Positions 1 through 59,655 of a stretch of DNA of 64,000 nt are shown here, in pieces. Position 1 is the stretch's first letter; every line of letters starts with the position of its first letter. The DNA lies in assembly GCA_000004985.1 (NCBI GenBank), contig GG738904.1. One strand, given 5' to 3'. The stretch is from Naegleria gruberi. Lineage: Eukaryota. Under the pieces are notes generated by a model. The model made no database searches. It saw only the letters and a program-made list of their open reading frames with translations, and was not told the origin of the DNA. A program made the position numbers and the translations under genes.

Positions 1-344
1 GCTTTATATCGGAGCGTGTTTGGTTCATCTTTGAAAGATTCAATATATAGTAGCAAATTTATTATTATCAAGAAGGTTTAAAGGTAAGTATTTGATGTAA
101 TTGATGATTGGAATTTATGGTTGGAAATTCGTGTGATTCTCTCCTCCTGTTGCCGTGGTAGTCGCTGAATATAATACATGCTTAAAAGAACGAAACAAGT
201 TGTTTTTCCACCTCCTCCTTTGCTATTAATTAATAATTATTACACTTCTATCAATTTCCAATTTTTGAATTTTGATATTATCTAGAAATTCTCCTCTCTC
301 TCACAGAAATTAAGAAGAAAAACAACAATACATGATCTTCTTCA

Positions 345-1661
345 ATGTCCTCCCCTCTGAAATCACCAAATAATTTAAAACCACTCACAATTGTCTCGCA
401 TCATCATCATCACCACCACCCTTCTGCTGAGCAATGTGATTGTTTATTTTGCAATGACCAAGGAATGTCAACTCCGACACCTTCATCTACATTGGTTGTT
501 GATGATAAAAAGTTTTTCCTTCCCTCTGAAATGTGGTATGAAATATTCAAATACTCGGATTTGTACACTCTTTCTGTATTGATGCAATGTCAGAGAAAGT
601 GGAAATCAATTTACAAGATGAGAGGATTCAAGTCAAAAATTCAATTTTTAAGAATGATGACTGTAGAGTTGGTTGTGAATCAATTGAATTCTAGTAATGC
701 GAGTATCAATAAGAAGAAATATGACGTTCCACAATATGCCATTAGTGGTAAATGTCAAATATCCCTTAACGAACAATATTTGAACAAGAAACATTGTGAG
801 TACAATGATCTCACTAAAGTAATTAAAAAGTTAGACACTCTCAAAGACTTTATTTTGAAGGAAATAAAGCTTTGGGAAGAAGCTAATGGAAAAGTTGATT
901 GTGACCAAATATTTTCAGTTTTCAAGTTAATGAACGACTTGTTCAAACCTGCAAATACATCACCATCTGGAAAAAGAAATGAAAAGAGGTTTGCAAAAGA
1001 TGCATTTGCCAGAGTTGCTATTGTTGGCGATCATAACATGTCAAAGACTACCTTCTTTAATACTTTCCGTTCTCAGATTGAAAATTTTGAATCAGAAGCT
1101 AACTGCTTAGACGATAATGTTGTCTTACATTCCAATAACTCTAACAAGATGAACAATTCCAGCTCTTATCAAATTTGGGATAATTACCAGAGTATTGATG
1201 TGACAACTATGCCTCCTTATTTCCTTAGACGAATCAATTTTTTGATTCTAATTTTTGACGTTTCGAATTTATCATCCTTCTTCAAGTTGCAAACTTGGGT
1301 AAATCAAGTTGTTTCAGGAAATTTAAAAATTGATACCATGCCAGAGTTTGTGTTAGTCGGTACAAAACATGACTTGCTAAAACCTCAAGATGTTGAGAAA
1401 TATTTAGAAAATCGAAACAAACATTACCAACCATTTGCTGACACTCTTGGAATTCCTTATATTGAAGTGGATTCGACAAATATAACGCATGTTGACTCTA
1501 TAATTCATTATTCACTTTCATGGACCTACTTTGTGCATTTGCTTCAAAATTTGTCCTCTACCCTTAAAACCCAACCAGATTCCAAACTTTACGAGAAAAC
1601 ATCTACTCCATCCTTTCATCTTCCCCAATATAGAACATTCGAGGCTAGACAATTAAACTAA
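345..1661 (+). CDS. F-box domain protein fused to a divergent Rab/Ras-like, probably pseudo-, GTPase domain; 438 aa, single exon
   Basis: ATG at 345, stop at 1661. There is an N-terminal His7 tract. An F-box-like segment reads LPSEMWYEIFKYSDLYTLSVLMQCQRKWKSI. The C-terminal half aligns to the small-GTPase fold with degenerate motifs. G1 is GDHNMSKT, where GxxxxGK[ST] has Ser in place of the second Gly. Switch II reads QIWDNYQS against Rab QIWDTAGQ. G4 is TKHD against NKxD. G5 is DST against SAK. Confidence 0.6.
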   Translation: MSSPLKSPNNLKPLTIVSHHHHHHHPSAEQCDCLFCNDQGMSTPTPSSTLVVDDKKFFLPSEMWYEIFKYSDLYTLSVLMQCQRKWKSIYKMRGFKSKIQFLRMMTVELVVNQLNSSNASINKKKYDVPQYAISGKCQISLNEQYLNKKHCEYNDLTKVIKKLDTLKDFILKEIKLWEEANGKVDCDQIFSVFKLMNDLFKPANTSPSGKRNEKRFAKDAFARVAIVGDHNMSKTTFFNTFRSQIENFESEANCLDDNVVLHSNNSNKMNNSSSYQIWDNYQSIDVTTMPPYFLRRINFLILIFDVSNLSSFFKLQTWVNQVVSGNLKIDTMPEFVLVGTKHDLLKPQDVEKYLENRNKHYQPFADTLGIPYIEVDSTNITHVDSIIHYSLSWTYFVHLLQNLSSTLKTQPDSKLYEKTSTPSFHLPQYRTFEARQLN

Positions 1662-1701
1662 CTTGATTATCCAACAACTCTGTAAATACAAAATAAATAA
1701 T

Positions 1702-4700
1702 TTATTGCTTTCTTTCAATGGTCCATCCCTTTTTCGATGTGATTGTTTCAATAGATTTAAAGTTATTGTCCCACCAAGACTTTGTATACGCATTCATCCT
1801 GTCAATCTTTGCCAAATGTTTCATGCAGTAAAGTAATGAATTATTATCTGTCATTCTGCTCAATGAATCAAAGTACTGATCCAAGCAAAATCCTACTCTT
1901 TCTGATTGTAAAGAATCCTCAATAGTCAACAATGAATCGAATACAAGGAAGTATGAGTCTGAGGATTCAGTTGCCGAGTTAACAATTATTGATTGAATAA
2001 ACAATTCGCAGAATTTTTTGGAAATAGAAATACTATCCCAACACCAATGACATAACATGGCTGAAATATCTTGCAATCTGATATTCATGTTGACTAAATG
2101 ATTGAAGAAGAGTCTGTGGAATAGTTTGTCCTTATCTGATGAACAAAGACTATAAGCGTACGGTTCGGTTCTTGGATTTGGATTAATGAGTGGTCCAGAG
2201 GAAACAATTACTCCAGTAATGGAATCCTCTTGGTCAGTGTCCATAATTGTTGGAGGTCTAGCTGTGGTAGATGCAGAGCATGTTCTAACCAAGATACTGA
2301 AAATTCTAATTATAAAAGCAACTGATAATTGTCCAAAAGTTGTAACAATAGAATATTTTGGATTAAAATTAAAGTAAATTGGTTCGCCTTCGTTTTGATG
2401 TTTTGGTAATAGTCCACCCAAAATTAGAGCAAGTTTTGAGACTAATTGTCTCTTAACACACAACAATCTGTAAGAAATTGGACCAAGTGAAACAATATCT
2501 TCCAATAATCTGAAATAATGAGCTGTAGATTTGTGGAATTGTGGAACAATGCTCAACATATCAATCATGCAATCAATAAAGAATCCTGAAGAACATTCAT
2601 AGTCTTTTTCTGTTACTTCCATTGGCTCATCAAAATTAGGATAATTGTTCATGGTCTTTGTAGTGGTAAATCTCCATTCCTCCTTTTCAAAATACTCAAA
2701 TAGATTCTCAACTGGATATAGTGATCTCAAAGTTGCTATTATTAAATCCACAACAGAATCACGTATTTCTTGGGATGGACATATCAGTAGAGAATCTATC
2801 TTCCATTTATCTGTTCTAGCAAACTCTACTAGGAACCACTTTGCAATTCTACTATGTTTTTCAAAAGTATCTTTCAAATAGGTAATCCACTTAACAATCT
2901 TTGGATTGTAAGATCTGATATAATATCCAAAGATATAATTACATGATAGCTGAACGTTTCTCAACACCATGGCATAATCATTGCTCTGGTAGGTACTTAA
3001 ATTACCAAACAAGTATGAATCAAAAGATTCATCGAAAATATTCTTGTAATGATAGAATTTTTCATTTTCCTTCCAAACCTGGGTCATTACAGAAGAGGCT
3101 GGTTGAATAGCTGAAGTTTCCTTTGTTTCAAATGATTCAGCATTAAGCACGCTCACCCTTTGATAGAATAACATGTAGGCATTATTACATCTGAATAGGG
3201 ATGTCTTTTTTCCTGAAATATTATGTTCTACCAGTCCTCCAAAACATTCCATTTCCATTCTGTTAAGATCGAATGGATTAATTTCTTCATCGTTAAATTC
3301 GTACCACTTCTCTTCTTCATTCTTTCTATCCATTATGAATGAGTAATAGTGGCCAGAGTCAGCACTTCCTGAGTGTACCAAAACACCAACTAGTTTATAT
3401 TGGTAGTAATCGTCAGGTCTATGAGGAGGCGGAATGTCGTAGATTCCTCTATTTTCCTTTCTCTCCATACCTTCTACTGTATACGGTTCCATATTTAATA
3501 AATGTGGGAACTCCACACGATCATTGATTTTTCTGTTTACCATTAGACTGAAATCAAAATCAAATCGTTTCAAATGAAGAATCAGAACATTAGGTAGATC
3601 CTTAATAAGAGTTCTTTTGAGTGCGTCTACATGTCTGTCAAGCTTGTCGCTGAAATATTGATTATTACCTTCGAGCATTTCACCTTGACAGTACAATTCT
3701 AGGGATTCCATAATATTTCTCTTATTTTTAACTTCTAAACTGATAATATTGAAATTTTCTGGTCTCTCTGAAATATTTTCTTCATAGATAATTTGATGGA
3801 GAAGAGATCCTCCATAAACATCCCTCAGGAGATAATCCTTCTTGTAGAACTTTAATGCTTCTTCTACACAATCCATAAATAAGTTGAAAAACTCGTTGGC
3901 ATCATGTTGAGTTGAGCATTCAACAGGTCTGCCATCAACTTTGTAAACCCTACAAAATGGTCGTGTATCATAGAATTTCTTACGTCCATACTCTAAGAAG
4001 GCAAACATATCCTGGACCTCTCTCAACAAAGAAACATTTTCTTGAAGTTTTTCGTTGGTAGGCAGTTCATCCGTATTAACAGTGATTAACTCCTTTCTGA
4101 AAGGAATAGTCATGAAGAATTGTTGAAGTAAAGAGTTCATATAACATGTGGCTCCTTGATTTTTCAATCCTACGAATGGTTTCTTCTTTTCTTGGTAGAT
4201 TGGGTAGACTTGCCAATTTTGTGGTTGTTCACAACCTCGAATATATTCTTCTAATAACTGTAAAATTTCCAAGTAATTATCAGGACAACCATCAACAACT
4301 TCTTGTAAAAAATTGAATGTTGCACTCCTACTTTCTTTTGTTTTACATTTTGGTAAAGGCAAATTATCTGTTTGATCAGTTAATTTTGGTACCTCAAACA
4401 AACCATTCAAAAACAAATCCTTGATATGCTTGTGTAATTCTTGCTTAAGGAATGGATAAGTTCTTATGAGAGCCTTTGCAATATTAAAGTAACCAATCAA
4501 AACTTGATCTGCAGCAGAGGTATTATTCTCCTCAATAATTGGTCTATCAAATATCTTTTTAACTATGGTAAACACCTCCTCTTGTGAAATCTCTGTAAAA
4601 TGTTTAGAGTTCATAATAGAATTTTCCAATAAAAGGAAATAATCATCGCATCTATCCTTGTACAAATCAATGTCCTCAGTCATCATTATATTATAGAGTG

Positions 4701-7700
4701 TTGTAATAAAATAACTTGAAGCTTGACTAGAGGAAGAAGATAATTCCAAAATTGTATTGGCGAACTTCTTTCTAATATTGGCATCAGGAGAGAATAGGAG
4801 ACTCTTTGTAGTGCTCAATGTTGTTTCATGAGTGAGCAGTAGTTGTAATAAATCTGGTTTGGATGATGTTATTTTAAGAATGGTAGTTAAGGCAAAGTCG
4901 TAAAGCATAAAGTGGGCATACTCCGAGGTTGTAGTAAATTGAGGATTATATTGGAAAGAGGTAGTAGGTCTGTGTGTGGTAGATGAATCAGAAAGATTAG
5001 AGTTATTCACCCTTTTTTCTGTTTCCTCTACTATTAATACTCTTAAAGTTTCAAGTAAATTGAGTAAAATTTCATTCAATCTCTCATTATTTTCTGGAAT
5101 AAACTTATTCAAGATCTTCAATAGTAAAGCAGCACATTGTTTCTGGAGAGGATTCTTATAACTCTTTCCAATACATAACAATCCATCCACAAGATGCTTC
5201 AAACCTCCATATTTCACAAAGTTGTCATACATCTTCGATCCAGGAACGAAATTTTTGGAAAACTTTGAATCAAGAATTTGTAAACAATATAATAGCTTGT
5301 GGGTACTGTTAGTTGGTAAAATTTCCATCCAATTAATATTACCTTGCATGTTTTCAATATTTAAGATGTTTTTGGACATTGCATAATTTGTAGGTAAATG
5401 CATTAGTAACATCCAAACCTTTTTGGCTACCTCATCACTGCTTGAACCGTCAAGAAGAGAGAACAATAGCGAGAAATGGCTTTCTTTTGATAGAATGCTC
5501 GCAGGGTTCAATCCATCCTCCAAGTTCAATATCACATATTCCTCATCAAGACCATCATCGTTATGAGTAGAAGATGCTAAAAATCCTCCTTCTTGCTTCT
5601 TACTTTTCTTTGCTGAAGATCTATTTCTAGAGAGGAAAACATTACCAAGTTCAGGAACTCCAAGAGCTTTCAAAGCATTACTCGTTAGGGAGAATGTGAT
5701 ATCTCTTGATGAAATTGGTCTGACATAAATTTCAGCACTTGATTCTAAACCAAGATCTTCCAGTGTTTTGTGTTTGTAACATGATAAATCTTCACCTTTC
5801 TCAGTTTCCAATCTTAATAAATGGGCCGAAGATTCATCACCGAGTTCAGAGGCAATAATATTTGTCAATTCATATATTTTCATCTTTGAAGAAACCGATT
5901 TGACAAAACTTTCATTTGTGTAGCAACTAATCTTCAAAGTGATTGGATATCCAAGGAAACTAATTCCGTGGCCTTTATATCCTCCTCCACCACTCTTTTG
6001 ATTTGCTACTACAATATAATCAATCATAAGACTAATGATGTTACAAATGTAGGCGTCTTTTCTCTTAGATGGACTACTGTACTGTTTAAGAAGTTCCATA
6101 CATTTTGCAATGAACTTTTCTCTATAGTCAGCTATAAAATGTTTCAACTCTTTTGCATAACCTGTCTTGTAATTGTTCAAGCATTCTATTGCCTGTCTTA
6201 ACACCTTTTGATCTTTCACAGATAAAATTAAATTCCAAAAGTGTACTAAACCAATTAAATCATCTGATAACACATCTATTTTCTTAATTTTCTTTACAAC
6301 AGGAACAGGATCCTCCTCCATCTCTTGTGATGGAACAGGAGGCTCAAGAAGTTCTTTTCCTTTTGTGATGATTTTAGAAATAAACTTCTTTCCTGAGTTT
6401 GGTTGTTCAATGATAATGATGTTTTCATTTTCTCCAACTGTTTCATAAATAATTTCCAATCTTCTTGCAATAATATTAACAGCTTTAAAGAATGTTCGGA
6501 AGCAGTTGAAATAATTCTCTGAAATACCACTATACAATGACTCTGACTTACTCAGCGAACAAACTAACTCTTCAAATACAAATCTAGTTGTTTCATCATC
6601 AAAAGAGGTAAAATCTTCACAATAATTTTCTCTCATCTTTGCCATCCATTCCATAACAATGTCCCTGTTACCATGAGTCCATAAAACAATACAATTTTTA
6701 ACAGAAAGGGTAATAGGAGAGTTTCTAATAACAAACTCCAAAAAGTCTAATTGATCCCTCAGTTCTTGGTCTGTCTGACTGGTATTTTCCATGTCACTTG
6801 GAAATTGGATTTCAAAGTTTGTAAAAAAGTGATCCATAAGATTTGTTTTTTCGTTAATAGATGCTATTACACCCCATGTTGATTGTTTTTTCTTTCTCTT
6901 TTGAAGGGAGTATGTAGCTAACAATGTCTTCATAAGAGATACGGTTCCTGATGTATTGTGTCTTGACTTGAGCATATCGATACAGTTTAACAGGTATGTC
7001 TTTCTAATACTCTCAAAACAATCTTGTTTGAATAATTCTGAAAGACATTCAAATGCTTTTCTATTTCCGCCAATAGCTAGTTTCCAAAGTAAATCGAGAG
7101 CAAACCAGTTCTTTTTCTTTTCTTTTAACTTTGAAAATGAATTAACAGCACAAATAGTAAAATGAGAAAGGAAATCTACCATGTGATCTCTTTTGCTGAT
7201 TGTTTCAACTGGAATAGCTTCAATTTTTGAATATAAATAAAGAATATCATTAAGGGAAAGTAATGGTACAAAACCAGCGAGAGTAGAAAGAATTAATCTT
7301 TCTGTTGCCTCGTGCTTGTCAACAGAGGCATTCCACAACAAGTCAAGTTCCTCTCTCGAGAACCCTTTATGTTGGGCTAATAATTTAAGTATTGCTATTG
7401 ATATGTTAAGTATTATTGTGATTTGATAAATAAAACTTACATAAAGATTGTCTTACAAGCTCTCTATGTACATCAGTTTCAAATAAATAACCTAGTAATT
7501 TCTTTTCACTCGACCATGCTATAAAAATTCTAATATGTAAATCTTTCTTTGATATATTTACAGATGACATATTAGAATCATTAGATCCATTTAACTGTGG
7601 ACTAGATCCTCCCTGTTTTGACATTTGGTCAGCCTTGATAAGAGTGTCTACATGAGATCTAATTTCGTTCATTCCCAACATTTTTCTTTCAACTGAGTGA

Positions 7701-10441: not shown

Positions 10442-13400
10442 ATGGAACATTTACTCGTGTTGACTACTGTTGAAAGAATTGGTGATTCTCTTCCAAGTAC
10501 ACCTTCATCACAAAGAAGAAAGGGTTTCAATTTGAAGGGTTATATTAAAACACTCAATGAATTGATTGTTTTGCCAAATATTGACTTACACAAAGTGGTT
10601 CAACCTCTCGTTGATCTCTACGATAATGTCTCTAAAGTAAGTAGTTTTTCAGAAGGCTGTAGTGGTTTATTAACGCTACATGGTTTTTTTGTTGCAAATT
10701 TCATTATCATCATGTTTGGCGCCACAATTTTGTATCTTCCAATGACACAATTTTTCAACAATAACAACAACAAAACAAAATGATGATCAACTAATAATAT
10801 CATCATCATGCTGGTTATTATGTTGATATTTATCTAACAAAAACAAATTATCATATATAGACCACAATCAATGCTACATTAAAACCTTCTGAGAAAAGAA
10901 CAAAATTAGAGTTGATCAACAAATCAAAACTCATCATTCTCAATCTATTATCGGATTATATAAATTTTGCCATCGAAAATAAGGAAGTAAGTATGAATTA
11001 TTGTGAGGTTCATCAATATGAATTTGTTATTATTATTATTAATAATATATTTAATAGCTTGTTTTGCCAAATCATCACTTGAACAATTTGTTCTGTCAAT
11101 TTGATAATGATGATCTCTTGTTGGAAGAGAGACGTCAAGAACAAGATGAAGAAGAAGATGAAGATTTAGTTGCACTTGTTAAGGAACAATCAAAGAATGC
11201 TCATCAACCATCACAATCAGCTTCAACAATTACAGAAAGTACAAATGAAGGTAACGAATCTCCAAGTATTAAAAATGGATCTCTCAATCAGATCAGTGAT
11301 TTCGAATATGGGCATGAAAGAGGTAGATCACCAAGTGGCTTGGGAGCATCTCTTGATTATTTAAATGCTTACAAGCAAAGAAAACAAAAGAAATCTTCAT
11401 CAAAATCACAAAGAAACTTTAATGTAAAGAGAAGTGCTGCCACTTTTACTCAACCAAAAGAATTGGACGAAGCAACAGCTCTCAACATTATTCAATTAGT
11501 TTCCACTAGATTATTATTACAACATGATATGTTCTATGATGCCACACAAGAAGAAATCCAAAAAACAGCAGTTAATAATTATCTTGAACAACAAATTTCC
11601 TATAGATGTATGGAGATACTATTCAAAATAAGTGTTTGTAAACCAGATACTGTTTTCAAGACTATTGTTGGTGATTCATTACCTACATCACTTAATAATA
11701 ACTGTATGGATATCAGTTTTAATACTGATCTTCAATCTGACAAACTTCCTTTCTCTTCCTCTCTTTCACATTTCAAACTGATCGAATATGTAAATTGGAC
11801 AGTTGGTAATTTAGAAAAACTCTTAAAGGCAGTCAATGAAAACATGAAAGGTTTTACCAAATATTTGGAAGTCTTAACACCTCCTTTAAGATTAGCTATA
11901 TGGAACTTTATTACAAACTATAATAATGAATTTGTTGATATCATTAAGAATCCAAATGCTTCAATTGTTAATACAGCTAGAGAAACATTTGATAATATTT
12001 ATAAACAAACAGGAAAGAAACAAAAAAACAAGACATGGCCAGCACTTGCCACTTTATGCGTTTTGACTGCAGATGATCTTCTAAAGTGTGTAAAGGCAGG
12101 TAATGGTAAAAAGTTTGGTGGCAGTGAAAATATGACAACATTTATTCACAAAGATCTCTTAAAAGCAATGGAAGATAAGGATAAGTCTCTTATTTTACCT
12201 CCATTGATTGACATTTATAGAGCTGTATCATATGCACCATCAGATGTAGAAACAGCCTTTGCTGTTCTTTCTCTTTTGGTGGAAGAAAAATTCCTTTCCA
12301 TTTTTGTACCAGAACCAACAACAGGAAAAGTTTCTAAATGCTATAGTCCAGAAGAGTTGAATGAACTCGAAATGTGGACATTTTATGTAACAACACTTTA
12401 TAGAAGAAGCCCAGAAAAATGCAAAAAACAACTAATGATACCAATAATGGCAGATGGTACTTTAGAGCAAAAACAAACAGTTGCCAAAGTACTTCTTTTC
12501 CTTCTTACTGATAGATCTTCTCAATTTACCTACAATAGAAAGTTAGAAGTAGACTTTAAAGTACTTGCTTCATCTCTTCGTGAATTTTTCATTTCGACTA
12601 CAGATCAATTCAAAGGTAAAGCAAGAGAAACTGGTGATGATAATACTCCAACATTAGCACCAAGTGCATCCTTTAGAACACCAAAGAAAGGCTTTGCAGC
12701 TCTTTTAAGAGAGAAAGTAGGTGGTAAGGACAGTAGTAATTCTCCTACTGGATTGGGATCATTCGCAGGTCAACCAAACTTTAAAATGTTTGATACTGTT
12801 AACACAATTCTTCACGTTTTTTGTGCTGATCCAAGGTTTTTCCTTACAAAGTCAAACGAATCCGATCAAAATATCAATAATTTTGCCTATTTGGCTGACT
12901 TCTTTGTGCTAAATTCTGACCCAATTGTACAAGATCAAATAACTAGACTTTTCCAAAAGCTTTTCTTAGAACAATATATTAAGAACTGGGGAGATGATTT
13001 ATTTGTTGGATTCAGTACTATCTCAACAAGAGTTTTGTCAAGACTATCACCTGCTCTTTTCCTTCTTAATGAATTGGAACAATTGCAAGCAACAAAGACC
13101 TTACTTTTCCTTTTGAGAAACATTACCTATTGTGCTAAGAAATTCTATATTGCTAACAGAGACACTTATTTACTTTTGGAACACATTAGAACTAACCCTG
13201 ACAGAATTAATACTCTTGAAGTTTTATGTAGTAACTTATTGGTATGCCTTTGCTCAACTGATAAGGAGATTTGGCAGTCTACTACAAGATGTTTGAGAGA
13301 TGTTTGTGACCAAATTGAAATTTTGAATAATCACAACATTAAGAAGTTGAATTACAATTTTTACAGACAATTGGCAAGCATTGACTTGAATGGTAAATTT

Positions 13401-16400
13401 TACAATGAAAGAAAGTCACAAATCCAACTTTTCAAGAGAGTTGAAACTCAAACACCATCCATTTTGAAAGCCTTTGGTGAGGTTTATAACAGATGGAAGG
13501 AACTTCTTGATCAACTCAAGAGTGAAGATTCTGCTTCAAATATTACCTTGAGAGATTTGTTCCCTAATTACACCTCTTTGCTATGTGCTCTCGGTGGTGT
13601 ATGCATTCAAGATACAAAGGATGAAGATTCAAGCTTTGTTCTTGATTTCTTAAAGCCAGAGGCAACAAGTGCCAATAATGTTGACAGTTATATGGATGAC
13701 TTGATGAAACAAGTTATTTCAGACGATGTCAATGTCAGACAAATGGTAACCATCTCTGTTTCTACTGATTTATCACCAAGTCTTTTCACTAAATTGTTCA
13801 CTGCCATGAAGGCTTCAGTTCAAGAACAATTCGGACAAACATTTGTTATTAGTCAAAAGAATAACTTACTTGTTGATCAATATCTTCACATTCTCAAGAC
13901 AATTGTTGAAAATCCAGATACTAATACTGATCTTTCTCTTGCTCAAGAAATTGATTCCATTACTGATCTCTTTGCTAACTATTGTACACACAGCGAATTT
14001 GATAACAAGGATGTCCTTGAGTTGAAGAAGAAATTATGTCAATTCCTTGAAGTTTTGATGAGCAAAGTTGAATACTTGACTTTCAAGAACATTGAAGAAC
14101 AAAAGTTGAGAAGAACAATCATTGGTCACGTTATGGAATGGACAACTGATTCTGTCTTTAAAGAAAAGACATCAACCGGAGCAAGTGTATCAACTCCTCG
14201 TGTTGCTTCTGAGGCTCCTCTTCTAGAAAACAATTCCCAAGTTTCAACTGAAGTCAAGAAACTCTACACCGATCTTGATTTGTTGTGCATGAAGGCATGT
14301 ACTTCCCTTATCAATGGTATGGTTATTGCAAACGATGAAAAAGGAAGAGAAGAATATTCAAAATACTTTGCTTTCTTATTGAGATTCCTTGAAAAGGCTA
14401 AAGACAGTACTTTTACAGCTACAATTTACAAGGCCTTCTCTAGATTATTGCAAACAAACGTCAGTTTTGGTCTTGAGTATTACATGTCAAAGGTCTACGA
14501 TAATAATAACACTATTAGATCAACATTCTTGGGATTGCTATCTGAATTGATCAAGAAGGGACTTTTGGTTGAAGAAGAAGAAAAAAATAAGCAAGACAGA
14601 GTTTCTATTTCTGAATACCAAGAAATTATCAACAAACTTGTCTTTACCAATAGAAAGAGAGCTCTTTTTGCACTTTTTGATAAGTGCAAGAATCCAGAAA
14701 AAGATGATTTGTGTGAAGCTGTTATTAGAGTTTATCAATCAAAGGGTGAAATTGATAAGAATTTATTAGATTTGTTCCGTCAAAGTGTTACCAGAGAAGT
14801 TGCAACCACACCAAAATCACAACCTGAAACTCTTTTCAGAGCTAACTCAACCTCTACTAAACTCTTAAAGAAGTACTGTTTGAGAGTCAGTAACCCATAC
14901 TTGACAACTGTTATTGGTGGGTTCATCGATACTATGTGTACTAAGCCAACCAAATTTGAAATCGATCCACTGAAGGCTCAACAAAGAGGAGAAAGCGTTG
15001 AAGAAAACGTTGAAAATATTCTTGAAGTATTACAAGAATTTATTGACTGCCTCTGTGATTCAGTCCAACAAACACCTTACACCTTCAGAATGTATTGCAG
15101 ATATTTGTACGAAGAAGTTGGTAAGAAATTCACTAAACCAGATGATGACAATGATGAACAATTTGACTTTAAATATATTGCAGTTGGTGGTTTCTTAATT
15201 TTGAGATTGATTTGTCCAGCCATCACTTCTCCACATTTGTATGGTTTGTCAGGAAGTGATATTCCTGCTGACTCTAGACGTTATGCAATCATTCTTACAA
15301 AGTTGGTTCAAAACTTGGCAAACGGTATTGTTGACTCCAAGAAGGAAGAATTCATGAAGAATTTTGTTGATATTATTAGACTTAATCTTAACAAGATTCA
15401 AACCTATTTTGAAAAGATTGCTGCTCCAATAGTTGAAAATGAAGAAGTTTTGAGAATTGAAGAAACAGTCACTGAAGATGAATTGAAGGAAGCATATGAA
15501 GTTCTCTATAGATTCTTCTATAACTATGCTGATACATTGAGAGAAGAATTAAGTTCACTCTATGATGATATTGAAGATGAGGAAAAGGAAGTATTGGAAG
15601 AAGTTGATATCAATGAAAAGCCATCCTCTAAACAAAACGGTAAATCTCTCAATGATCTCTTAGAAAAGGCTATTGAACAATTTGGTAAACCAGCTGAAGA
15701 AGAAAAAACAGGAAGAAGACTTTCTGTAAAGCTTAGCAAGGATGATGAGTTCTCCAATCCATTACTTAAGGAATTGCTCAGAAAGAATGAAAAGAAAGAT
15801 ACCTCAAAGATTGCTGAAATGAAATTCTTCTCTATCAGTGAACACAAGAATGCTAAGAATCAACGTATAGTTTATTTCATTCCTTACAATTTGGATTTGA
15901 CTAGATTCTCTCTTGATTTATACTTGTACTATGTTCTCAAGAGTATGGAAACCATTTGGAAGGAACCTTATATCATTGTTGTAGATTCTACCTTCTTGAC
16001 AAAGAAATTTGATATTCGTTTGTCTGTATTTATTCAACTTTCCAAACACATTCCACAAGGTGCAAAGAAGAATCTTCAAGAAATTTACTTGGTTAACCCA
16101 AATACATTCTTCAACAAGACCACTAAGAAGCTTGTCTCCATGTTAAGTCATAATCGTTGGAAGGTCATTACTACCAGCTCTTTGCCAGCTGTCACTGACC
16201 AAAAATCAAAGACTCCAACCTCAAAGGATCCATTAGAACTTGTCAAACCTGAACATTCTATGCTTCCATCTCTCACTCAACAATTGTATGAAAAGAGTGA
16301 AATAATATATAATACTGAAGTTGTTCTTGCTTCTCATACAACTGATTGTGAAATTAGACTCTTTGATCAATACATGTTTATTGTTATCAAGGGAGAAAAG

Positions 16401-19337
16401 TTTATTAATAACAAGGTACCAGCAGATTGTTTGGAACATGTCAATGTAACAAAGATTGCCAATATTGCTGTAAAGAAGTCATTGTTTGGTAAATCAAGCA
16501 AGGCCACTAAAGATTTTGTTGTCAAGTATATTGATGATGAAGATGCTGAAGCAGCCTACAACTTTAGAGCTCAAACCATTGAAGAAAGAGACCAAATTAT
16601 GCAAGGTATTAGAAACTATGTTGAAAGAAAATCAAGAGGAACAAAGACTGGAAAATCTCTTGAACGTGAATTTAAGAGACTTAAACTTCAAGATGTACCA
16701 GGTCAACTCCTTGCTATTTCATTCTTCAATCTCGATTCTAAACACACTCCAATTAGAGCTAGTGCTTATTCGTTACTTGCTTCTATCTTTGAACAAGTCA
16801 AGATTTCTTCTCATGGTTTGATTTTAGAAAGTGATGCTGCTTATGTTCCAAGAAATACTGAAAATACTGTTTTGAGAATTAGTGAATACGTTGCCAGAAA
16901 TAAGCCTGAACTCACTTTAGAATTCATTTGTGAAGCTCTCAATGCCTTCAAGACAATCCAAGGAAATAAGTCCAAGTTGAAGTTTGCATCCTTCATCCTC
17001 CCATGGCTCGATAACTTGTCAAGATTTGAAATTTCTACTAGTGTTGATGAAGTTGATGAAAAGACCGAAACAATTAAGAATTGGTTCGAAAACTTTACCA
17101 AACTCTGTATTGCCAATGAAGAAATCTATCCAAAATTACAAAATGTTTGGAAGCACGTCTGTAAACTCTCTTTGCCACTCATTAGAATTGCTATTGAGAG
17201 TGTTATCAAACAAGGTACAACAAGTGAAATGCTCATGAATGGAGAACAATCTATTATTGGCGATATTTTAGGAACTATTTTGTTGCACTCACCTCTTCAA
17301 TGGAATGTGGCTCAATTTATCATTAACAAGATTGTTGAACCACTCATGACAGAGGAATTGAATATTGACCTTTTGAACAAAGCAACAGTTAAAGAGTTGG
17401 TGAAATCAAAAGATATTCTAGGCAAGATTCCAGTTTACATGTCTTATCTCCTTATGTTGTCTTTTAATAGTCAAATCAATTTGTTAGAGAATTTGCCATA
17501 CGTACTCTTTATTATTTCTCTCTTCTTGGGTGTTGGTTCAGATACCTACTTGAGATCAATTGTTTATGGTATTTGTTGTAACTGTGTTCACTCCCTTGTT
17601 TTGGAATTGCCAGCATGTGAACAATTTGAGCATGTAAGAGCCAAATTGCAAAAGCTTCATTTGAGAGTTCTTGAAAAGGACATCAAGTCAAGTTTCATGG
17701 GTGGTGAACATGAACCACAACCTTTTGCCTCATACTCTGATTTTGTCAATAAGGTTTCACAAGGAAAGGTAACATTCGATGAAACTACCATGTACAAGTA
17801 TGAAGATATCATGAGATACTTTAAGGAAATCATTGAATGCTTTGACTTTAGTTACGATAGCCTTATTCAAGCTAGGGGTAAGACTTTGAAATCTCAATTT
17901 GGTTCTACCATTATAACCTCATCCAAGGCAACTCATAGTGTTATTGAAGAATCATCTGAAAATTCCAAGGATATGGATGAAGATGGTACAGAAAATGATA
18001 TGACAGAAGGAGAAGTTGATGATGAGCATAACGGTTCTAATCCAAGCACTAGCACCTCAGATATCGTTAAATCTGGCAGTGATACCATCAAGAGTGTTTG
18101 GTTGAAGATCTTTACCAACTTATGTAAGGATACCATGAAGACAGCCAATCTCTTATTGTTCCCTAAATCTTTAATCTCATTCAGTATTATTTCCACCTCA
18201 GAACAATCATATGATATGATTCCATTTGTTCTTAACTTTATTGGTAAGCGTGGTGTTGAAACTCTCTCCGAAAATGAGCTAATGTTGTCTGTTCTATTGT
18301 CAATTAACCAATTCTGTATTAATATGGTTGTTGAAAAGGATAGAATTGAAACTTTGAGAAAGATTATTATCTTTGGATTCTTCTTGTTGACCATTGCCAA
18401 CACAAAGATTTATTCTGCTGTAACCAAGTTGCTCAGTACAGTTTTTGCCATTCTTTTTGAAGCTAGAGATATTCATGACGGTTTCTTGTCTATTGGTGAT
18501 TACTTTAATCAAGTTTTCAGATCTGACTACTCCAAGTACCTATCCATCACTAAAGAATTTGAAGAAACTGTTGGACTTTCATTTGGCCAACACTTCTCAT
18601 TCACCGTTTCTCTTCTTCTCATGAAGGGACTTGCTATTGATGACTCCACCATTAGAAAGGCAACTATTTCTCTCCTCAAACAAATCCTCTCTATCAGTTA
18701 CAAACTCAAGTTTGAACCACAAAACCAACTAGGCTTTATTGCTGCTTTAATTCCATTCGATAAGCAGTACAACTCTGTATTATATAGTGAACAACTCTAT
18801 TCTGAAAGCATGTTCACTAAGGAAACTGTTTTCCTCTTCCAAAAGTACCTCTTTAGCATTACTGCATCCAACATTGATCTTGATAGCTGTGCTTCTGTTT
18901 ATAGATCACTTGCAAGAGGTTTTGAAGCCATTCCTGATACTTTTGCAGATGTTTTCCAAGATCACCACAGTATGTCTCAAGTCATTAAGGTATACACCTC
19001 CTCTCAAGATGATACTATCATTGAACATAGTTTGAATCTTTTCAAGATTATGAGTAATAATGCCAAATCAAAGAAACTTCAAGTTAAGGAACCATTTGCT
19101 GATTATGGATTCAAAGGTTTCCGTGATCAAACTACATTCCAAACCACTAAGGATGACTTGAAGAAGAAATGTCAAAAGACTTTGATTACATTCTTAACTG
19201 AAAACTTTAATGAACAAGAATATCCATCCATGGATTCTGTAATTATTTCCAAGACTGGTATGAAGAAATCATTCCTTAAAGCCGCCTCTTCAAGTCCAGT
19301 TGTAAGACAAGCATCAGGAACAAACTTTAAGAAATAA
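10442..19337 (+). CDS. NF1: Neurofibromin (NF1) orthologue, RasGAP with Sec14-like region, about 2866 aa; join(10442..10636,10861..10986,11058..19337)
   Basis: The RasGAP signature reads FLRFLEKAKD...FRMYCRYLYEEVGKKF...IAVGGFLILRLICPAITSPHLYGL, matching the FLRxxxPAIxSP finger and switch region. Downstream blocks align closely to human NF1, for example TLEFICEALNAFKTIQGNKSKLKFASFILPWLDNLSRFE and YMSYLLMLSFNSQINLLENLPYVLF. Two 5' introns have GTAAGT donors and ..ATAG/..AATAG acceptors. The third exon is a single 8.3-kb ORF. Confidence 0.85.
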
Positions 19338-30050: not shown

Positions 30051-31871
30051 ATGAGAGAAGGAGAAAGTCAATACGGTGATATCTTGTCTGTTTCAGGACC
30101 AGTCGTCGTTGCTGAAAAGATGGAAGGTGCTGCCATGTACGAACTTGTTCGTGTTGGTAATCAACAACTTGTGGGTGAAATTATTCGTTTGGAAGGTGAT
30201 ACTGCCACAATCCAAGTCTACGAAGAAACATCAGGTTTGACTGTTGGTGATCCAGTATTGAGAACTGGACAACCATTGTCTGTTCACTTGGGTCCAGGTA
30301 TCATGGGTAGTATTTTCGACGGTATCCAACGTCCTTTGGAAGTCATTTATAAAAACTGCAATGAAGATATTTACATTCCTAGAGGTATTAACGTAAATTC
30401 ATTGGATATGGATAAGAACTGGTTTTTCAACCCAACAAACTTCTCTATTGGTGATAAAATCACTGGAGGTGACATTTTCGGTGAAGTTGAAGAAAATGAC
30501 TTTATTAATCACAAAATCCTCCTTCCACCAGGTGCTATGGGTGAAATTACTTATATTGCTAGCCCAGGTAACTATACTCTTAACGATGCTGTCATTGAAG
30601 TTGATTTCAATGGTATGAAGAGACAATTCGGTATGGCCCACTTCTGGCCTGTACGTCAACCTCGTCCAGTTATTGAAAAGTTAGCTGGTGATTATCCAAT
30701 TTTGACTGGTCAACGTGTTTTGGATGCTGTCTTCCCTTCTGTCCAAGGTGGTACTTGTGCTATTCCAGGTGCCTTTGGTTGTGGTAAGACTGTCATTTCC
30801 CAAGCTATTTCTAAATATTCTAACTCTGAAGCTATTATCTACGTTGGTTGTGGTGAACGTGGTAACGAAATGGCTGAAGTATTGATGGAATTCCCTCACC
30901 TTACTGTTACTAATCAAAAGACTGGTAAGGAAGTTTCTATCATGAACAGAACTTGTCTTGTTGCTAACACTTCAAACATGCCTGTTGCTGCCAGAGAAGC
31001 TTCTATTTATACTGGTATTACATTGTCCGAATATTTCAGAGATATGGGTATGAACGTTGCTATGATGGCTGACTCTACTTCTCGTTGGGCTGAAGCTTTG
31101 AGAGAAATTTCTGGTCGTCTTGCTGAAATGCCTGCTGACTCTGGTTATCCAGCTTATTTGGGTGCTCGTTTGGCTTCTTTCTATGAACGTGCTGGTAAGG
31201 TTCGTTGTATTGGTAATCCAGGTCGTACTGGTTCAATTACTATTGTCGGTGCTGTTTCTCCACCTGGTGGTGACTTTGCCGATCCAGTTACTGCTTCAAC
31301 TTTGGGTATTGTCCAAGTCTTTTGGGGTTTGGATAAGAAATTGGCTCAAAGAAAGCACTTCCCTTCAGTCAACTGGCTCATTTCCTACTCTAAATACATT
31401 AACTCTTTGGAACCTTTCTATGAAAAGGTCGATCCTGAATTCGTTCGTTTGCGTACAATCATGAGAGAAATTCTCCAACAAGAAGAAGATTTGACAGAAA
31501 TTGTCCAATTGGTCGGTAAGGACTCACTCCCAGAAAACGATAAGGTTACATTGGAAGTTGCTAAATTATTGAGAGAAGATTTCTTGCAACAAAACTCATT
31601 CACTGATTATGACAAGTATTGTCCATTCTTTAAGACTATTCTCATGTTGCGTAACTTTATTAAATTCTATGAAGATTCTCAAAAGGCTGTTCAAGAATCA
31701 GGTGCCAAGATTACATGGAACACAATTAAGAATGCCATGACTGATTTGACTTACAAGTTGTCAAGCCAAAAGTTTATCAAGCCATCCCTTGGTGAAGCTG
31801 GTGTTAAACAACAACTTAACGACCTTTATCAAGAAATTTCAAATGCTTTCAAGAATCTTGAAGAAGAGTAA
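30051..31871 (+). CDS. vatA: V-type proton ATPase catalytic subunit A, 606 aa, single exon
   Basis: Near-full-length identity blocks to V-ATPase subunit A include [50 protein letters not shown], the Walker [10 protein letters not shown] and [12 protein letters not shown]. Confidence 0.95.
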
Positions 31872-34512: not shown

Positions 34513-35863
34513 ATCTAGGTACTTGGACCTCCTCCTCTGTCTTGTTTTGGAGAGAAGCATATTCTTCAATTAAACTTGCAGCATTTTCCAAAGCTTCATC
34601 AAAGAGAGCTTCAGGCATGTATTCAGTATAGTGGTGAGTGTAAATTTTCTTCTTGTAGAGCTTCTTAAATCTTGTATGCATGTCAGAGAAAACATTTCCA
34701 ATACAGCAATTATTAGCCAAGCAAAGAAGAGAGTAAGGTTGATTGTGTGGTGCTACGTGACAAAGACCTACTTTGAATCCTTCTTGGTTCCAATATATCA
34801 TATCCATTTCACCCTTCATTTTAGCAATGTTTCTGTTAATATCAGAGATATTTGCTTGTTGGCCTCTTAAAATCAAACCACATGATAAATATTTGTGATG
34901 GATTGGATCACATTTCAATAATTGATAATCTCTGGAAAGAACATCCTTAAACATTTGATCCATTCTTCTTGGAGGAAGATGCACATCCTTTGGCATCACA
35001 AAAGGAGATAAACTGCTGAGTAAAAATTTCAACCTTGGATAAGGAACCAAATTCATGGTTATTTCGTTAAGATCGACGTTGAGAGAGCCTTCAAATCTCA
35101 TTGAGCTGGTTAAATTGGTAAGCAAGGTGGCGGCGATATCGTTCATTTGGTCAAATGGTTTTGAATCTTCTTCTTTTGACAGGGTGCTGGTCACATCCTT
35201 TTTCTTTTCGAGTGAATTTACAAATTTACACATGTCATATAGTGCTTGATTTTCAATAGGTAAAACACAATCCGAGTTTTCTGATAATTCATTGAGTGAT
35301 AGTAAGGAGTTATAAGGTGAGGTGATAACGTCATCGTCTTTGGAAGGGAAAACACAAGCAGAAAATGTATAAATATCAGGAAATTCATCATGGAGGACTT
35401 GTGTAATAAAAGATCCCAAACCAGAACCTGTACCACCTCCTAAACTATGAAGTAAAAAGAAACTCTGAATCGAATCACATTCTTCAACTTCCCATCTAAT
35501 TTTCTCCAATATTTCCTCATGATATTTAGGTCCATACACTTCATGACCATGTGCCCAATTGTTTCCTGAACCACTCACATCAGAAATAACTTGTCTATCT
35601 CTATTAAACAATCCTCCAATATCACTTTTAAATATTTGATTCACAACTCCTTCTTCCATGTCCACTAGTAATGCTCTTGCTTTAATATCTGGCATGCCGG
35701 CCCTTCTCGATTTCTGCTCCATATCCCATTTGAAAAAGGTTGATAACGGTTCATCATACAAAATATCGGGATTTTGATTTTTCTTATTTTGAAACACTGC
35801 AGCATGTTCCCTCAATACTAAATCCCACATTCTTCCTCCGATTTGATTACCACATTGTCCCAC
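34496..35863 (-). CDS. TUBE1: Epsilon-tubulin, 455 aa, single exon
   Basis: Tubulin motifs GQCGNQIG and GGGTGSG are present. The protein is collinear with epsilon-tubulin across its length, for example WDLVLREHAAV, RALLVDMEEGVVNQIF, SGSGNNWAHGH, NLTSSMRFEGSLNVDLNEITMNLVPYP and LANNCCIG. ATG is at 35863. Confidence 0.85.
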   Translation of the reverse strand: MGQCGNQIGGRMWDLVLREHAAVFQNKKNQNPDILYDEPLSTFFKWDMEQKSRRAGMPDIKARALLVDMEEGVVNQIFKSDIGGLFNRDRQVISDVSGSGNNWAHGHEVYGPKYHEEILEKIRWEVEECDSIQSFFLLHSLGGGTGSGLGSFITQVLHDEFPDIYTFSACVFPSKDDDVITSPYNSLLSLNELSENSDCVLPIENQALYDMCKFVNSLEKKKDVTSTLSKEEDSKPFDQMNDIAATLLTNLTSSMRFEGSLNVDLNEITMNLVPYPRLKFLLSSLSPFVMPKDVHLPPRRMDQMFKDVLSRDYQLLKCDPIHHKYLSCGLILRGQQANISDINRNIAKMKGEMDMIYWNQEGFKVGLCHVAPHNQPYSLLCLANNCCIGNVFSDMHTRFKKLYKKKIYTHHYTEYMPEALFDEALENAASLIEEYASLQNKTEEEVQVPRFIPDF

Positions 35864-59582: not shown

Positions 59583-59655
59583 TGCCGACACCAGGGATCG
59601 AACCAGGGACCTTAAGATCTTCAGTCTTACGCTCTCCCAACTGAGCTATGTCGGC
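59583..59655 (-). tRNA. tRNA-Phe (anticodon GAA), 73 nt, no intron
   Basis: The minus-strand sequence is GCCGACATAGCTCAGTTGGGAGAGCGTAAGACTGAAGATCTTAAGGTCCCTGGTTCGATCCCTGGTGTCGGCA. It has a 7-bp acceptor stem, a D-loop AGCTCAGTTGGGAGAGC, an anticodon loop CTGAAGA and a T-loop GGTTCGATCC. Confidence 0.95.

What the first reader, a model, noticed from the sequence alone, without database searches (positions are those of the whole stretch)
345..1661. F-box fused to a degenerate Rab-like GTPase domain
An F-box (LPSEMWYEIFKYSDLYTLSVLMQCQRKWKSI) is followed by a small-GTPase fold. The P-loop retains only the Lys and Thr (GDHNMSKT). Switch II has lost the Gly (WDNYQS). G4 is TKHD and G5 is DST. A 30-aa Asn/Ser-rich insertion lies in the switch I region. 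The protein would place a nucleotide-insensitive or weakly binding Rab-like module on an SCF ubiquitin ligase adaptor. I do not recognise this as a standard family. The His7 tract at the N-terminus is also unusual.
Basis: partly seen in the sequence, partly recalled or inferred. Interest (0 to 1): 0.55.

Follow-up and report, generated by a model that had tools for sequence, protein, structure and literature searches.

The report
Naegleria F-box protein with degenerate Rab-like domain
This is a real Naegleria gruberi gene that joins a ubiquitin-ligase adaptor motif (F-box) to a Rab-like GTPase domain lacking its catalytic residues; this kind of fusion is already published for Naegleria and the gene is already catalogued, so only the F-box call and the motif analysis are new.

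Summary
The ORF at 345..1661 (+, 438 aa) is real. The window is Naegleria gruberi (Heterolobosea), not an amoebozoan.

The C-terminal half is a Ras-superfamily fold. It scores 47 bits against Pfam Ras (cut-off 21.6), and the confident part of the model matches Rab structures.

The F-box is below the Pfam cut-off on the single sequence. A profile of three orthologues hits almost only F-box proteins in the PDB, in register, and matches independent Naegleria F-boxes (hhalign E 9e-6).

Motif claims are mostly right, with two corrections:
- The P-loop GDHNMSKT keeps Gly, Asp, Lys and Thr. Only the second Gly is replaced, by Ser.
- There is no 30-aa insertion. The spacing is 43 residues against a Rab median of 40.

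The switch I Thr and the catalytic Gln are lost in all orthologues. The P-loop Lys/Thr, the switch II Asp and [TS]KxD are invariant.

Herman et al. 2021 already list this exact protein as "RasGTPase7", a newly created gene model with no extra domain recorded. They also describe F-box–GTPase fusions as common in Naegleria.

It is not a TbFRP orthologue.

Most likely it is an SCF substrate receptor with a non-hydrolysing Rab-like binding module. Interest is low to moderate.

The parts
345..1661 (+). Complete single-exon coding sequence, 438 aa plus stop. It is N. gruberi 'RasGTPase7' of Herman et al. 2021.
   Evidence: ORF list. The identical sequence is in Table S8 of PMC8296547 as a newly created gene model on ACER01000578.1. 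Full-length orthologues exist: P0002 at 48% identity and Willaertia P0003 at 36%. A second N. gruberi strain (L001) differs inside the ORF only by two in-frame 3-nt indels and one synonymous change.
399..419 (+). His7 tract, (CAT)4(CAC)3, aa 19-25. It is a simple codon repeat.
   Evidence: Sequence. It is His6 in strain L001, HHH in P0002 and absent in Willaertia. It is therefore variable and not conserved.
471..485 (+). TP[TS]PS motif (TPTPS, aa 43-47) upstream of the F-box. T43, P44, P46 and S47 are invariant in all three orthologues. It could be a proline-directed phosphorylation site; this is inference only.
   Evidence: Alignment A1 invariant columns T43, P44, P46, S47.
519..620 (+). F-box, aa 59-92: LPSEMWYEIFKYSDLYTLSVLMQCQRKWKSIYKM.
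   Evidence: Pfam F-box and F-box-like match aa 59-91, model positions 4-36, at E 0.08-0.12, below cut-off. The same models hit the same place in both orthologues at E 0.003-0.02. With a three-orthologue profile against the PDB, 10 of 11 hits at E<10 are F-box proteins aligned at their F-box, best KDM2B at E 0.0015. hhalign against four independent Naegleria F-boxes gives probability 83% and E 9e-6, in register.
621..1004 (+). Mostly helical linker, aa 93-220, with no known domain. Conserved patches are KIQF.R (aa 98-103) and IFSVF.L..D.F (aa 189-200).
   Evidence: No significant Pfam hit in this region; the only match, T3RM_EcoP15I_C at aa 141-179, scored 14.4 bits against a cut-off of 25. 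Conservation is shown in A1. The model predicts helices at low confidence.
1005..1544 (+). Divergent Rab-like GTPase fold, aa 221-400.
   Evidence: Pfam Ras 47.4 bits and Roc 37.1 bits, both above cut-off. Best PDB sequence hits are Rab27B, Rab33B and Rab1. In the AlphaFold model with a 95-sequence alignment, 10-residue block means of pLDDT are mostly 87-97 over aa 221-240 and 291-400, with aa 321-330 at 78. Foldseek top hits are Rab11, Rab1, Rab35 and Rab8.
1026..1049 (+). G1/P-loop GDHNMSKT, aa 228-235. Gly, Asp, Lys and Thr are kept. The Gly before the Lys (Ras G15 position) is Ser in all three orthologues.
   Evidence: Alignments A3 and A1: GDHNMSKT / GDVSMSKT / GDKGVSKT against Rab consensus GDSGVGKT.
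1128..1166 (+). Asn/Ser-rich low-complexity stretch, aa 262-274 (HSNNSNKMNNSSS). It sits in the beta2-beta3 (interswitch) hairpin and is not an insertion. The switch I Thr position just upstream is Cys (C254).
   Evidence: Spacing of 43 residues against a Rab median of 40. Alignment. pLDDT is below 50 for aa 251-269.
1176..1193 (+). G3/switch II WDNYQS, aa 278-283. The Asp is kept. The DxxG Gly is replaced by Gln and the catalytic Gln by Ser.
   Evidence: Alignment: WDNYQS / WDSYTS / WDANGE against WDTAGQE. Willaertia keeps DxxG.
1362..1373 (+). G4 TKHD, aa 340-343, of the [NT]KxD type. Lys and Asp are invariant in the family.
   Evidence: TKHD / SKHD / TKTD.
1467..1475 (+). G5 position DST, aa 375-377, in place of Rab SAK.
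   Evidence: DST / NST / SCK against SAK.

Best explanation
The gene encodes a single-copy F-box protein restricted to Heterolobosea (Naegleria and Willaertia).

Proposed mechanism:
- The N-terminal F-box docks the protein on Skp1, and so on an SCF (Cul1-type) ubiquitin ligase.
- A helical linker connects the F-box to a C-terminal Rab-derived GTPase fold. That fold takes the place of the WD40 or LRR substrate-binding domain of ordinary F-box proteins.
- The fold keeps the residues that hold nucleotide and Mg: the P-loop Lys and Thr, the switch II Asp, and the Lys and Asp of [TS]KxD.
- It has lost what is needed to hydrolyse GTP and to switch: the switch I Thr and the catalytic Gln in all three orthologues, and the DxxG Gly in the two Naegleria-type sequences. 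The P-loop also carries an unusual Gly-to-Ser change.
- It therefore most likely acts as a constitutive, non-cycling binding module of the 'pseudoGTPase' type, possibly with weak or locked nucleotide binding. It would present Rab-partner-like proteins for ubiquitination.
- It has no C-terminal Cys prenylation motif, so it is not membrane-anchored like a true Rab.

Shown here: the ORF, both domains, the motif states, and conservation across genera.

Inferred, not shown: Skp1/SCF binding, nucleotide state, substrates.
For: - The ORF and its orthologues are intact in N. gruberi (two strains), in an unidentified heterolobosean from a metagenome (P0002), and in Willaertia magna. Herman et al. report a one-to-one N. 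fowleri orthologue, g2951.
- F-box: consistent sub-threshold Pfam hits at the same position in all three proteins. The orthologue profile hits F-box proteins almost exclusively in the PDB. hhalign against independent Naegleria F-boxes gives E 9e-6.
- GTPase fold.
- Motif pattern: G228, K234, T235, D279, K341 and D343 are invariant. The switch I Thr and the catalytic Gln are absent in all three orthologues, and the DxxG Gly is absent in the two Naegleria-type sequences but kept in Willaertia.
- No Cys in the last 10 residues.
- Precedent from established knowledge, not tested here: Rab40 (Rab plus SOCS box, CRL5) and RhoBTB (atypical Rho plus BTB, CRL3) are cullin-ligase substrate receptors built on GTPase domains.
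- Herman et al. propose 'GTPase-dependent ubiquitination' for the Naegleria F-box-GTPases.
Against: - The F-box does not reach the Pfam gathering score in any of the three proteins.
- The N-terminal half of the model is low confidence, so the F-box fold could not be checked structurally.
- No binding, nucleotide or expression data exist.
- The invariant nucleotide-binding residues fit a still-functional switch as well as a locked state.
- Ser at the Ras G15 position could abolish binding altogether. From my own knowledge, Ras G15A is nucleotide-binding deficient.
- With only three or four orthologues the conservation statistics are weak.
Confidence: 0.5

Rival explanations
1. The domain is a genuine GTP/GDP switch. 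It still binds and cycles guanine nucleotide, perhaps using non-canonical catalytic residues or a GAP that supplies them. Substrate recruitment to the SCF would then depend on GTP, which is the 'GTPase-dependent ubiquitination' suggested by Herman et al.
For: K234, T235, D279, K341 and D343 are invariant. The Willaertia orthologue keeps DxxG and an SCK G5 motif.
Against: The switch I Thr is lost in all three (C/C/I). The catalytic Gln is lost in all three (S/S/E). The DxxG Gly is lost in both Naegleria-type sequences. The P-loop Gly before Lys is Ser in all three. The switch I and interswitch region is low-complexity with pLDDT below 50.
Confidence: 0.2
2. The F-box does not build an SCF ligase for third-party substrates. 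Either it controls the protein's own rapid turnover, as proposed for TbFRP, or it forms a non-SCF Skp1 complex that acts in membrane traffic. Yeast Rcy1-Skp1, which works with the Ypt31/32 Rabs, is an example of the second kind (my own knowledge).
For: The TbFRP authors link its F-box to rapid proteolysis of the protein itself. The Rab-like origin of the C-terminal domain suggests a trafficking context.
Against: There is no prenylation motif or membrane-targeting domain. There is no specific relationship to FRP. Nothing in the sequence distinguishes this reading from a standard substrate receptor.
Confidence: 0.12
3. The N-terminal motif is only F-box-like and is not a working Skp1-binding F-box. 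The protein would then be a divergent Rab-like (pseudo)GTPase with a lineage-specific helical N-terminal extension.
For: All Pfam F-box scores are below the gathering cut-offs. Herman et al., who used Pfam, SMART and CDD, recorded no additional domain for this protein. There is no confident structural model of the region.
Against: The LPxE...IF...L...V..[RK][RK]W pattern is invariant across orthologues at 36-48% identity. Ten of eleven PDB profile hits are F-boxes in register. hhalign against independent F-boxes gives E 9e-6.
Confidence: 0.13
4. The locus is a decaying or non-expressed gene. Herman et al. describe birth-and-death turnover in the Naegleria Rab-like expansions.
For: The gene is absent from the official N. 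gruberi annotation. The G motifs are degenerate. Low-complexity tracts are present.
Against: A full-length intact ORF is conserved in at least four taxa, including another genus. Between strains the ORF shows only in-frame indels and one synonymous change, while 1-nt indels occur upstream. Herman et al. did not flag it as a pseudogene.
Confidence: 0.03

Closest known systems
Naegleria F-box-GTPase fusions (Herman et al. 2021, BMC Biol 19:142, PMC8296547, Supplementary Material 4 and Table S8)
   Same: Same organism and same architecture: an N-terminal F-box, a helical linker and a Ras-superfamily GTPase domain. [quoted passage not shown] This exact protein is in their table as RasGTPase7, with N. 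fowleri orthologue g2951.
   Different: For RasGTPase7 the 'Additional domain(s)' column is empty, and it is filed as an unassigned 'divergent lineage-specific paralog', not among the F-box Rab-likes. Its family profile scores at most 36 bits against the four sampled F-box Rab-likes, compared with 58-78 bits for the best canonical Rab-likes. Unlike the expanding birth-and-death subgroups, it is single-copy and conserved out to Willaertia.
TbFRP (Tb927.7.3790), the FYVE-F-box-GTPase of Euglenozoa (Adung'a and Field 2013, PMC3593210)
   Same: A Discoba protein with an F-box N-terminal to a Rab-related GTPase domain and no C-terminal prenylation motif.
   Different: There is no FYVE domain here. 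The FRP P-loop is canonical (GPCGVGKT) and kinetoplastid FRPs lack NKxD, which is the opposite pattern. hhalign aligns only part of the GTPase core at probability 45%, and the F-box and linker do not align. The family HMM scores TbFRP at 1.3 bits. It is not an orthologue, in agreement with the authors' failed Naegleria search.
Rab40 (Rab plus SOCS box, CRL5 receptor) and RhoBTB (atypical Rho plus BTB, CRL3 receptor)
   Same: Both place a small-GTPase fold in one chain with a cullin-RING-ligase adaptor module. The RhoBTB GTPase domain is likewise atypical and non-hydrolysing. This comes from established knowledge and was not tested here. RhoBTB is reported in Naegleria.
   Different: The adaptor module differs (F-box/Skp1/Cul1), as does the domain order (adaptor at the N-terminus). 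There is no sequence relationship beyond the Ras superfamily.
PseudoGTPases (general class: a GTPase fold with degenerate G motifs)
   Same: The catalytic Gln and switch I Thr are lost in all three orthologues, the DxxG Gly is lost in the two Naegleria-type sequences, and the P-loop is non-canonical.
   Different: The binding residues (Lys, Thr, Asp, [TS]KxD) are conserved. If it belongs to this class at all, it would be the 'binds but does not hydrolyse' type. That has not been tested.

Membership tests
F-box domain (Pfam PF00646 / PF12937) | Score at or above the Pfam gathering cut-off | tested here: not met
   PF00646 scores 13.4 bits against 20.5. PF12937 scores 12.6 against 24.3. The orthologues reach 15.0-17.5 bits, also below cut-off.
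F-box domain (Pfam PF00646 / PF12937) | Profile-level homology to recognised F-boxes, in register (LPxE ... hydrophobic heptads ... [KR]xW) | tested here: met
   Orthologue profile against the PDB: 10 of 11 hits are F-box proteins, best KDM2B at E 0.0015. hhalign against four independent Naegleria F-boxes: probability 83%, E 9e-6.
F-box domain (Pfam PF00646 / PF12937) | Binds Skp1 | not testable with these tools
   This needs a pull-down, yeast two-hybrid or a complex prediction. The N-terminal half of the model has pLDDT below 50.
Ras-superfamily small GTPase fold (Pfam PF00071) | Profile hit above cut-off and matching fold | tested here: met
   47.4 bits against 21.6. Foldseek hits Rab structures at E about 1e-7 with target TM-score about 0.7.
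Ras-superfamily small GTPase fold (Pfam PF00071) | G1 Walker A motif GxxxxGK[ST] | tested here: not met
   GDHNMSKT: the second Gly is Ser in all three orthologues.
Ras-superfamily small GTPase fold (Pfam PF00071) | G2 switch I Thr, G3 DxxG, and the catalytic Gln | tested here: not met
   The Thr position is C/C/I. DxxG is DNYQ/DSYT, with only Willaertia keeping DANG. The Gln position is S/S/E.
Ras-superfamily small GTPase fold (Pfam PF00071) | G4 [NT]KxD | tested here: met
   TKHD / SKHD / TKTD, with Lys and Asp invariant.
Ras-superfamily small GTPase fold (Pfam PF00071) | Binds and hydrolyses GTP | not testable with these tools
   This needs biochemistry.
Rab family in the strict sense | RabF1-F5 motifs (IGVDF, KLQIW, RFRSIT, YYRGA, LVYDIT; motif definitions are from my own knowledge) | tested here: not met
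   The aligned residues are CLDDN, SYQIW, IDVTTM, YFLRR and LIFDVS. Only F2 and F5 are partly kept.
Rab family in the strict sense | C-terminal Cys prenylation motif | tested here: not met
   The protein ends ...PQYRTFEARQLN, with no Cys in the last 10 residues.
Rab family in the strict sense | Closest relatives are Rabs | tested here: met
   All top PDB sequence hits and most top fold hits are Rabs. The consensus of the best database hits carries Rab hallmarks. Herman et al. left the protein unassigned within the superfamily.
FRP (FYVE-F-box-GTPase of Euglenozoa) | N-terminal FYVE domain | tested here: not met
   No FYVE hit in Pfam even at E up to 10.
FRP (FYVE-F-box-GTPase of Euglenozoa) | Co-linear homology of the F-box, linker and GTPase | tested here: not met
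   hhalign aligns only part of the GTPase core, at probability 45%. hmmsearch scores TbFRP at 1.3 bits.
Naegleria F-box Rab-like subgroups (Herman et al. 2021) | N-terminal F-box extension followed by a divergent Rab-like domain | tested here: met
   The class is described.
Naegleria F-box Rab-like subgroups (Herman et al. 2021) | Specific sequence affinity to members of those subgroups | tested here: inconclusive
   Only four F-box-bearing members plus one related Rab-like were available. The best scores 36 bits and the others 13 bits or less. One pairwise match in the pre-GTPase helix (FKLMN...) has E 0.012. No phylogeny was run.

The most novel reading that the evidence does not exclude
RasGTPase7 would be an old, single-copy F-box pseudoGTPase that predates the Naegleria-Willaertia split, distinct from the fast-turnover F-box Rab-like expansions. 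Its Rab fold would have been converted step by step into a constitutive substrate-recognition domain: Willaertia still has DxxG and SCK, and Naegleria has lost them. It would work as a functional pair with the neighbouring USP9X/USP24-like deubiquitinase, whose adjacency is conserved in both genera.
Probability: 0.1. Interest if true: 0.5.

Novelty: new member of a known kind. Interest (0 to 1): 0.25.

Why it matters
The value is modest. It adds an F-box assignment and a residue-level motif analysis to a gene that is missing from the official N. gruberi annotation and that the literature lists only as an unclassified Ras-superfamily paralogue.

It also shows the gene is conserved out to Willaertia, with the GTPase motifs degenerating step by step.

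If the Rab-like fold really serves as the substrate-binding domain of an SCF receptor, it would be a third independent route by which eukaryotes have joined small-GTPase folds to cullin ligases, after Rab40-SOCS and RhoBTB. It would also be a tractable single-copy entry point into the many F-box-GTPase genes of Naegleria, including the pathogen N. fowleri.

Tried and rejected
- Single-sequence AlphaFold gave mean pLDDT 34.5 and was useless. The run with a 95-sequence alignment resolved only the GTPase core.
- The three word-indexed homologue searches returned only the strain variant P0001, Willaertia P0003 and P0002 itself. The exhaustive HMMER search was what found P0002 and P0003.
- FRP orthology was considered because both lineages are Discoba, both proteins have an F-box before a GTPase, and the N-terminus has an HHH...CxC..C pattern that might have been a FYVE remnant. 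It was rejected because there is no FYVE hit and no co-linear profile match.
- The '30-aa insertion in switch I' was rejected on spacing.
- The His7 tract as a functional feature was rejected. It varies in length between strains and is not conserved.
- Close kinship with the sampled Naegleria F-box Rab-likes is not supported.
- The metagenome scan for more orthologues found none.
- No expression data for N. fowleri g2951 could be found in the supplements held.
- The pseudogene reading was rejected on conservation.
Full report
**What is there.**
The window holds an ATG-to-TAA ORF at 345..1661 on the + strand. Nothing longer than 65 codons lies on the opposite strand within it.

Several other ORFs of the window are identical to annotated Naegleria gruberi proteins. 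Examples are V-ATPase A (EFC38853/XP_002671597) and EFC38857 to EFC38859. The organism is therefore N. gruberi, a heterolobosean of the Discoba, not an amoebozoan.

The target protein itself is not in the 15-billion-protein collection. A 99.2%-identical copy from another strain sits on a metagenome contig (P0001/L001). Inside the ORF the two strains differ only by two in-frame 3-nt indels (His7 to His6, KKK to KK) and one synonymous change. Indels of 1 nt occur only upstream of the ATG.

**Domains.**
- Pfam Ras (47.4 bits, cut-off 21.6) and Roc (37.1 bits) match aa 223-387.
- The best PDB sequence matches are Rab27B, Rab33B and Rab1, at E about 1e-8 to 1e-7.
- An AlphaFold model built on a 95-sequence alignment is confident over most of aa 221-240 and 291-400, where 10-residue block means of pLDDT are 87-97 apart from 78 at aa 321-330. 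It is below 50 for the N-terminal half and for aa 251-269.
- Foldseek against the PDB returns Rab11, Rab1, Rab35 and Rab8, at E about 1e-7 with target TM-score about 0.7.

The F-box is weaker on the single sequence: PF00646 scores 13.4 bits (cut-off 20.5, E 0.08) at aa 59-91. Three further results support it:
- The same Pfam models hit the same position in both orthologues, at E 0.003-0.02.
- A profile of the three orthologues' aa 53-113, searched against all PDB sequences, gave 11 hits at E<10. Ten are F-box proteins aligned at their F-box: KDM2B (E 0.0015), KDM2A, FBXL2, FBXL5 and FBXW12/19/21/24.
- hhalign of that profile against four independent Naegleria F-boxes taken from the literature gave probability 83% and E 9e-6, in register from LP to W.

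I take the F-box as real with roughly 85% confidence. Skp1 binding is untested.

**Family.**
An exhaustive HMMER scan of 1.84 billion representative proteins found only three clusters at E<1e-30:
- the N. gruberi protein itself;
- P0002, 450 aa and 48% identical, from a metagenome contig of 42% GC;
- P0003, 432 aa and 36% identical, annotated as Willaertia magna KAL9647341.1, hypothetical protein.

All other hits are ordinary Rab-type domains matching only aa ~215-400. A metagenome DNA scan found no further members. The F-box core (LPSE.W..IF...DLY...V.M..Q.KW), a TP[TS]PS motif just upstream, two linker patches and the GTPase core are conserved in all three.

**GTPase motifs** (invariance). 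The order is N. gruberi / P0002 / Willaertia.

| Motif | Family | Rab consensus | Comment |
|---|---|---|---|
| G1 | GDHNMSKT / GDVSMSKT / GDKGVSKT | GDSGVGKT | Gly, Asp, Lys, Thr kept; only the Gly before Lys (Ras G15) replaced, by Ser, in all three |
| Switch I Thr | C / C / I | T | lost in all three |
| G3 | WDNYQS / WDSYTS / WDANGE | WDTAGQ | Asp invariant; DxxG Gly lost in the two Naegleria-type sequences, kept in Willaertia |
| Catalytic Gln | S / S / E | Q | lost in all three |
| G4 | TKHD / SKHD / TKTD | NKxD | Lys and Asp invariant |
| G5 | DST / NST / SCK | SAK | only Willaertia near-canonical |

P-loop Lys to switch II Trp spans 43 residues, against a median of 40 (range 35-49) in 89 Rab-like comparators. 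The Asn/Ser-rich stretch simply occupies the beta2-beta3 hairpin. Willaertia does have about 22 extra residues there.

There is no C-terminal Cys, and the Rab-family motifs in the switch regions are lost.

The pattern is this. Every canonical residue that still matches (G228, K234, T235, D279, K341, D343) is invariant in the family. The residues needed for hydrolysis and for sensing the gamma-phosphate are gone. To me that suggests retained, possibly weak, nucleotide binding without hydrolysis or switching. This is inference from three sequences. From my own knowledge of Ras G15A, the Gly-to-Ser change could abolish binding altogether.

**Prior knowledge.**
Herman et al. 2021 (PMC8296547) re-annotated the Ras-superfamily genes of N. 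gruberi. Their Table S8 contains this exact sequence as 'RasGTPase7'.
- It is a newly created gene model (**) on scaffold ACER01000578.1.
- It carries no pseudogene flag, no additional domain and no orthologue outside Heterolobosea.

Their supplementary text states that the F-box is the most frequent extra domain fused to Naegleria GTPase domains (Rab, Rho, Ran, G-alpha). It also says that three expanded Rab-like subgroups carry N-terminal F-box extensions, and that this points to GTPase-dependent ubiquitination.

So the architecture is published and the gene is catalogued. What is new here is the F-box call for this gene, the motif analysis, the Willaertia orthologue and the corrected details.

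**Relation to other F-box-GTPases.**
The family HMM scores the four sampled Naegleria F-box Rab-likes at 36 bits or less, and TbFRP at 1.3 bits. The best canonical Rab-likes score 58-78 bits, although those comparators were pre-selected as best hits.

TbFRP, the FYVE-F-box-GTPase of Euglenozoa (PMC3593210), was a natural candidate. I rebuilt FRP sequences from the paper's supplementary alignment. hhalign aligned only part of the GTPase core at probability 45%. There is no FYVE hit, and the motif degeneration is the opposite: FRP has a canonical P-loop and kinetoplastid FRPs lack NKxD. It is not an FRP orthologue.

**Mechanism.**
The best-supported reading (confidence about 0.5) is an SCF substrate receptor. 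The F-box docks on Skp1, and the non-hydrolysing Rab-derived fold replaces the usual WD40 or LRR substrate-binding domain. This is analogous to Rab40-SOCS/CRL5 and RhoBTB/CRL3 (established knowledge, not tested here).

The rivals are:
- a true GTP-dependent switch (0.2);
- self-turnover or a non-SCF Skp1 complex (0.12);
- a non-functional F-box-like motif (0.13);
- a decaying gene (0.03).

**Context.**
The gene lies tail-to-tail with a USP9X/USP24-like deubiquitinase ORF at 1702..7341 on the - strand (UCH domain). In Willaertia the orthologous USP, 52% identical over 1,418 aa, ends 1.6 kb from the orthologous F-box gene. Two small genes lie between them and the relative orientation differs. 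The third species' 4.8-kb contig shows a cathepsin downstream instead. This may be plain residual synteny.

**Verdict.**
This is a real gene with a correctly perceived architecture, though several details were wrong. It belongs to a kind already described for this genus. Novelty: new member of a known kind. Interest: 0.25.

Noticed in passing
window 1702-7341 (-); L003 1-6411: A USP9X/USP24-like deubiquitinase ORF (UCH plus DUF3517, at least 1,879 aa) lies 40 bp downstream, tail-to-tail with the F-box gene. The orthologous USP (52% identity) is also within 1.6 kb of the orthologous F-box gene in Willaertia magna. This could be an E3-DUB pairing or simply conserved synteny.
   Followed up: partly
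window 345-1661: The gene has no model in the official N. gruberi protein set. The exact sequence is absent from the collection while its neighbours are present. It exists only as a 'newly created gene model' in a supplementary table of Herman et al. 2021.
   Followed up: yes
L001 (ENA ERZ929261, contig k127_400908), aligned to window 1-2969: A metagenome contig is 99.2% identical to the window, so it comes from a second N. gruberi strain in an environmental or host-associated sample. It shows codon-repeat length differences (His7/His6, KKK/KK).
   Followed up: partly
window 471-485 (aa 43-47): A TP[TS]PS motif just upstream of the F-box has T, P, P and S invariant in all three orthologues, in an otherwise poorly conserved N-terminus. 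It could be a proline-directed phosphorylation site or a degron. A CL[FM]CND.G motif before it is shared only by the two Naegleria-type sequences.
   Followed up: no
L003 8001-9299 (Willaertia magna KAL9647341.1): The Willaertia orthologue is less degenerate: GDKGVSKT, an intact DxxG (DANG) and SCK at G5. It carries an acidic insertion of about 22 aa in the beta2-beta3 hairpin. This suggests stepwise loss of GTPase motifs along the Naegleria lineage.
   Followed up: partly
window 11064-19337 (+): A 2,757-aa ORF with RasGAP and CRAL_TRIO_2 domains has a neurofibromin (NF1)-like architecture.
   Followed up: no
window 36394-38079 (-): A 561-aa LRR protein gives weak hits to the LRRs of plant FBD-associated F-box proteins. 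It may be an FBXL-type F-box protein. The N-terminus was not examined for an F-box.
   Followed up: no
window 30051-31871 (+), 34496-35863 (-), 32601-33821 (+), 59583-59655 (-): Housekeeping genes confirm an ordinary chromosomal context with few introns at about 31% GC. They are V-ATPase subunit A, a tubulin-family gene, a SUN (Sad1/UNC) domain protein and tRNA-Phe(GAA).
   Followed up: partly
Table S8 of PMC8296547 (XP_002680400.1, corrected model): At least one other Naegleria F-box Rab-like has a badly degenerate P-loop (IAMFGSEISQLYHH). Loss of GTPase motifs may therefore be common among the Naegleria F-box-GTPases, not special to this gene.
   Followed up: no
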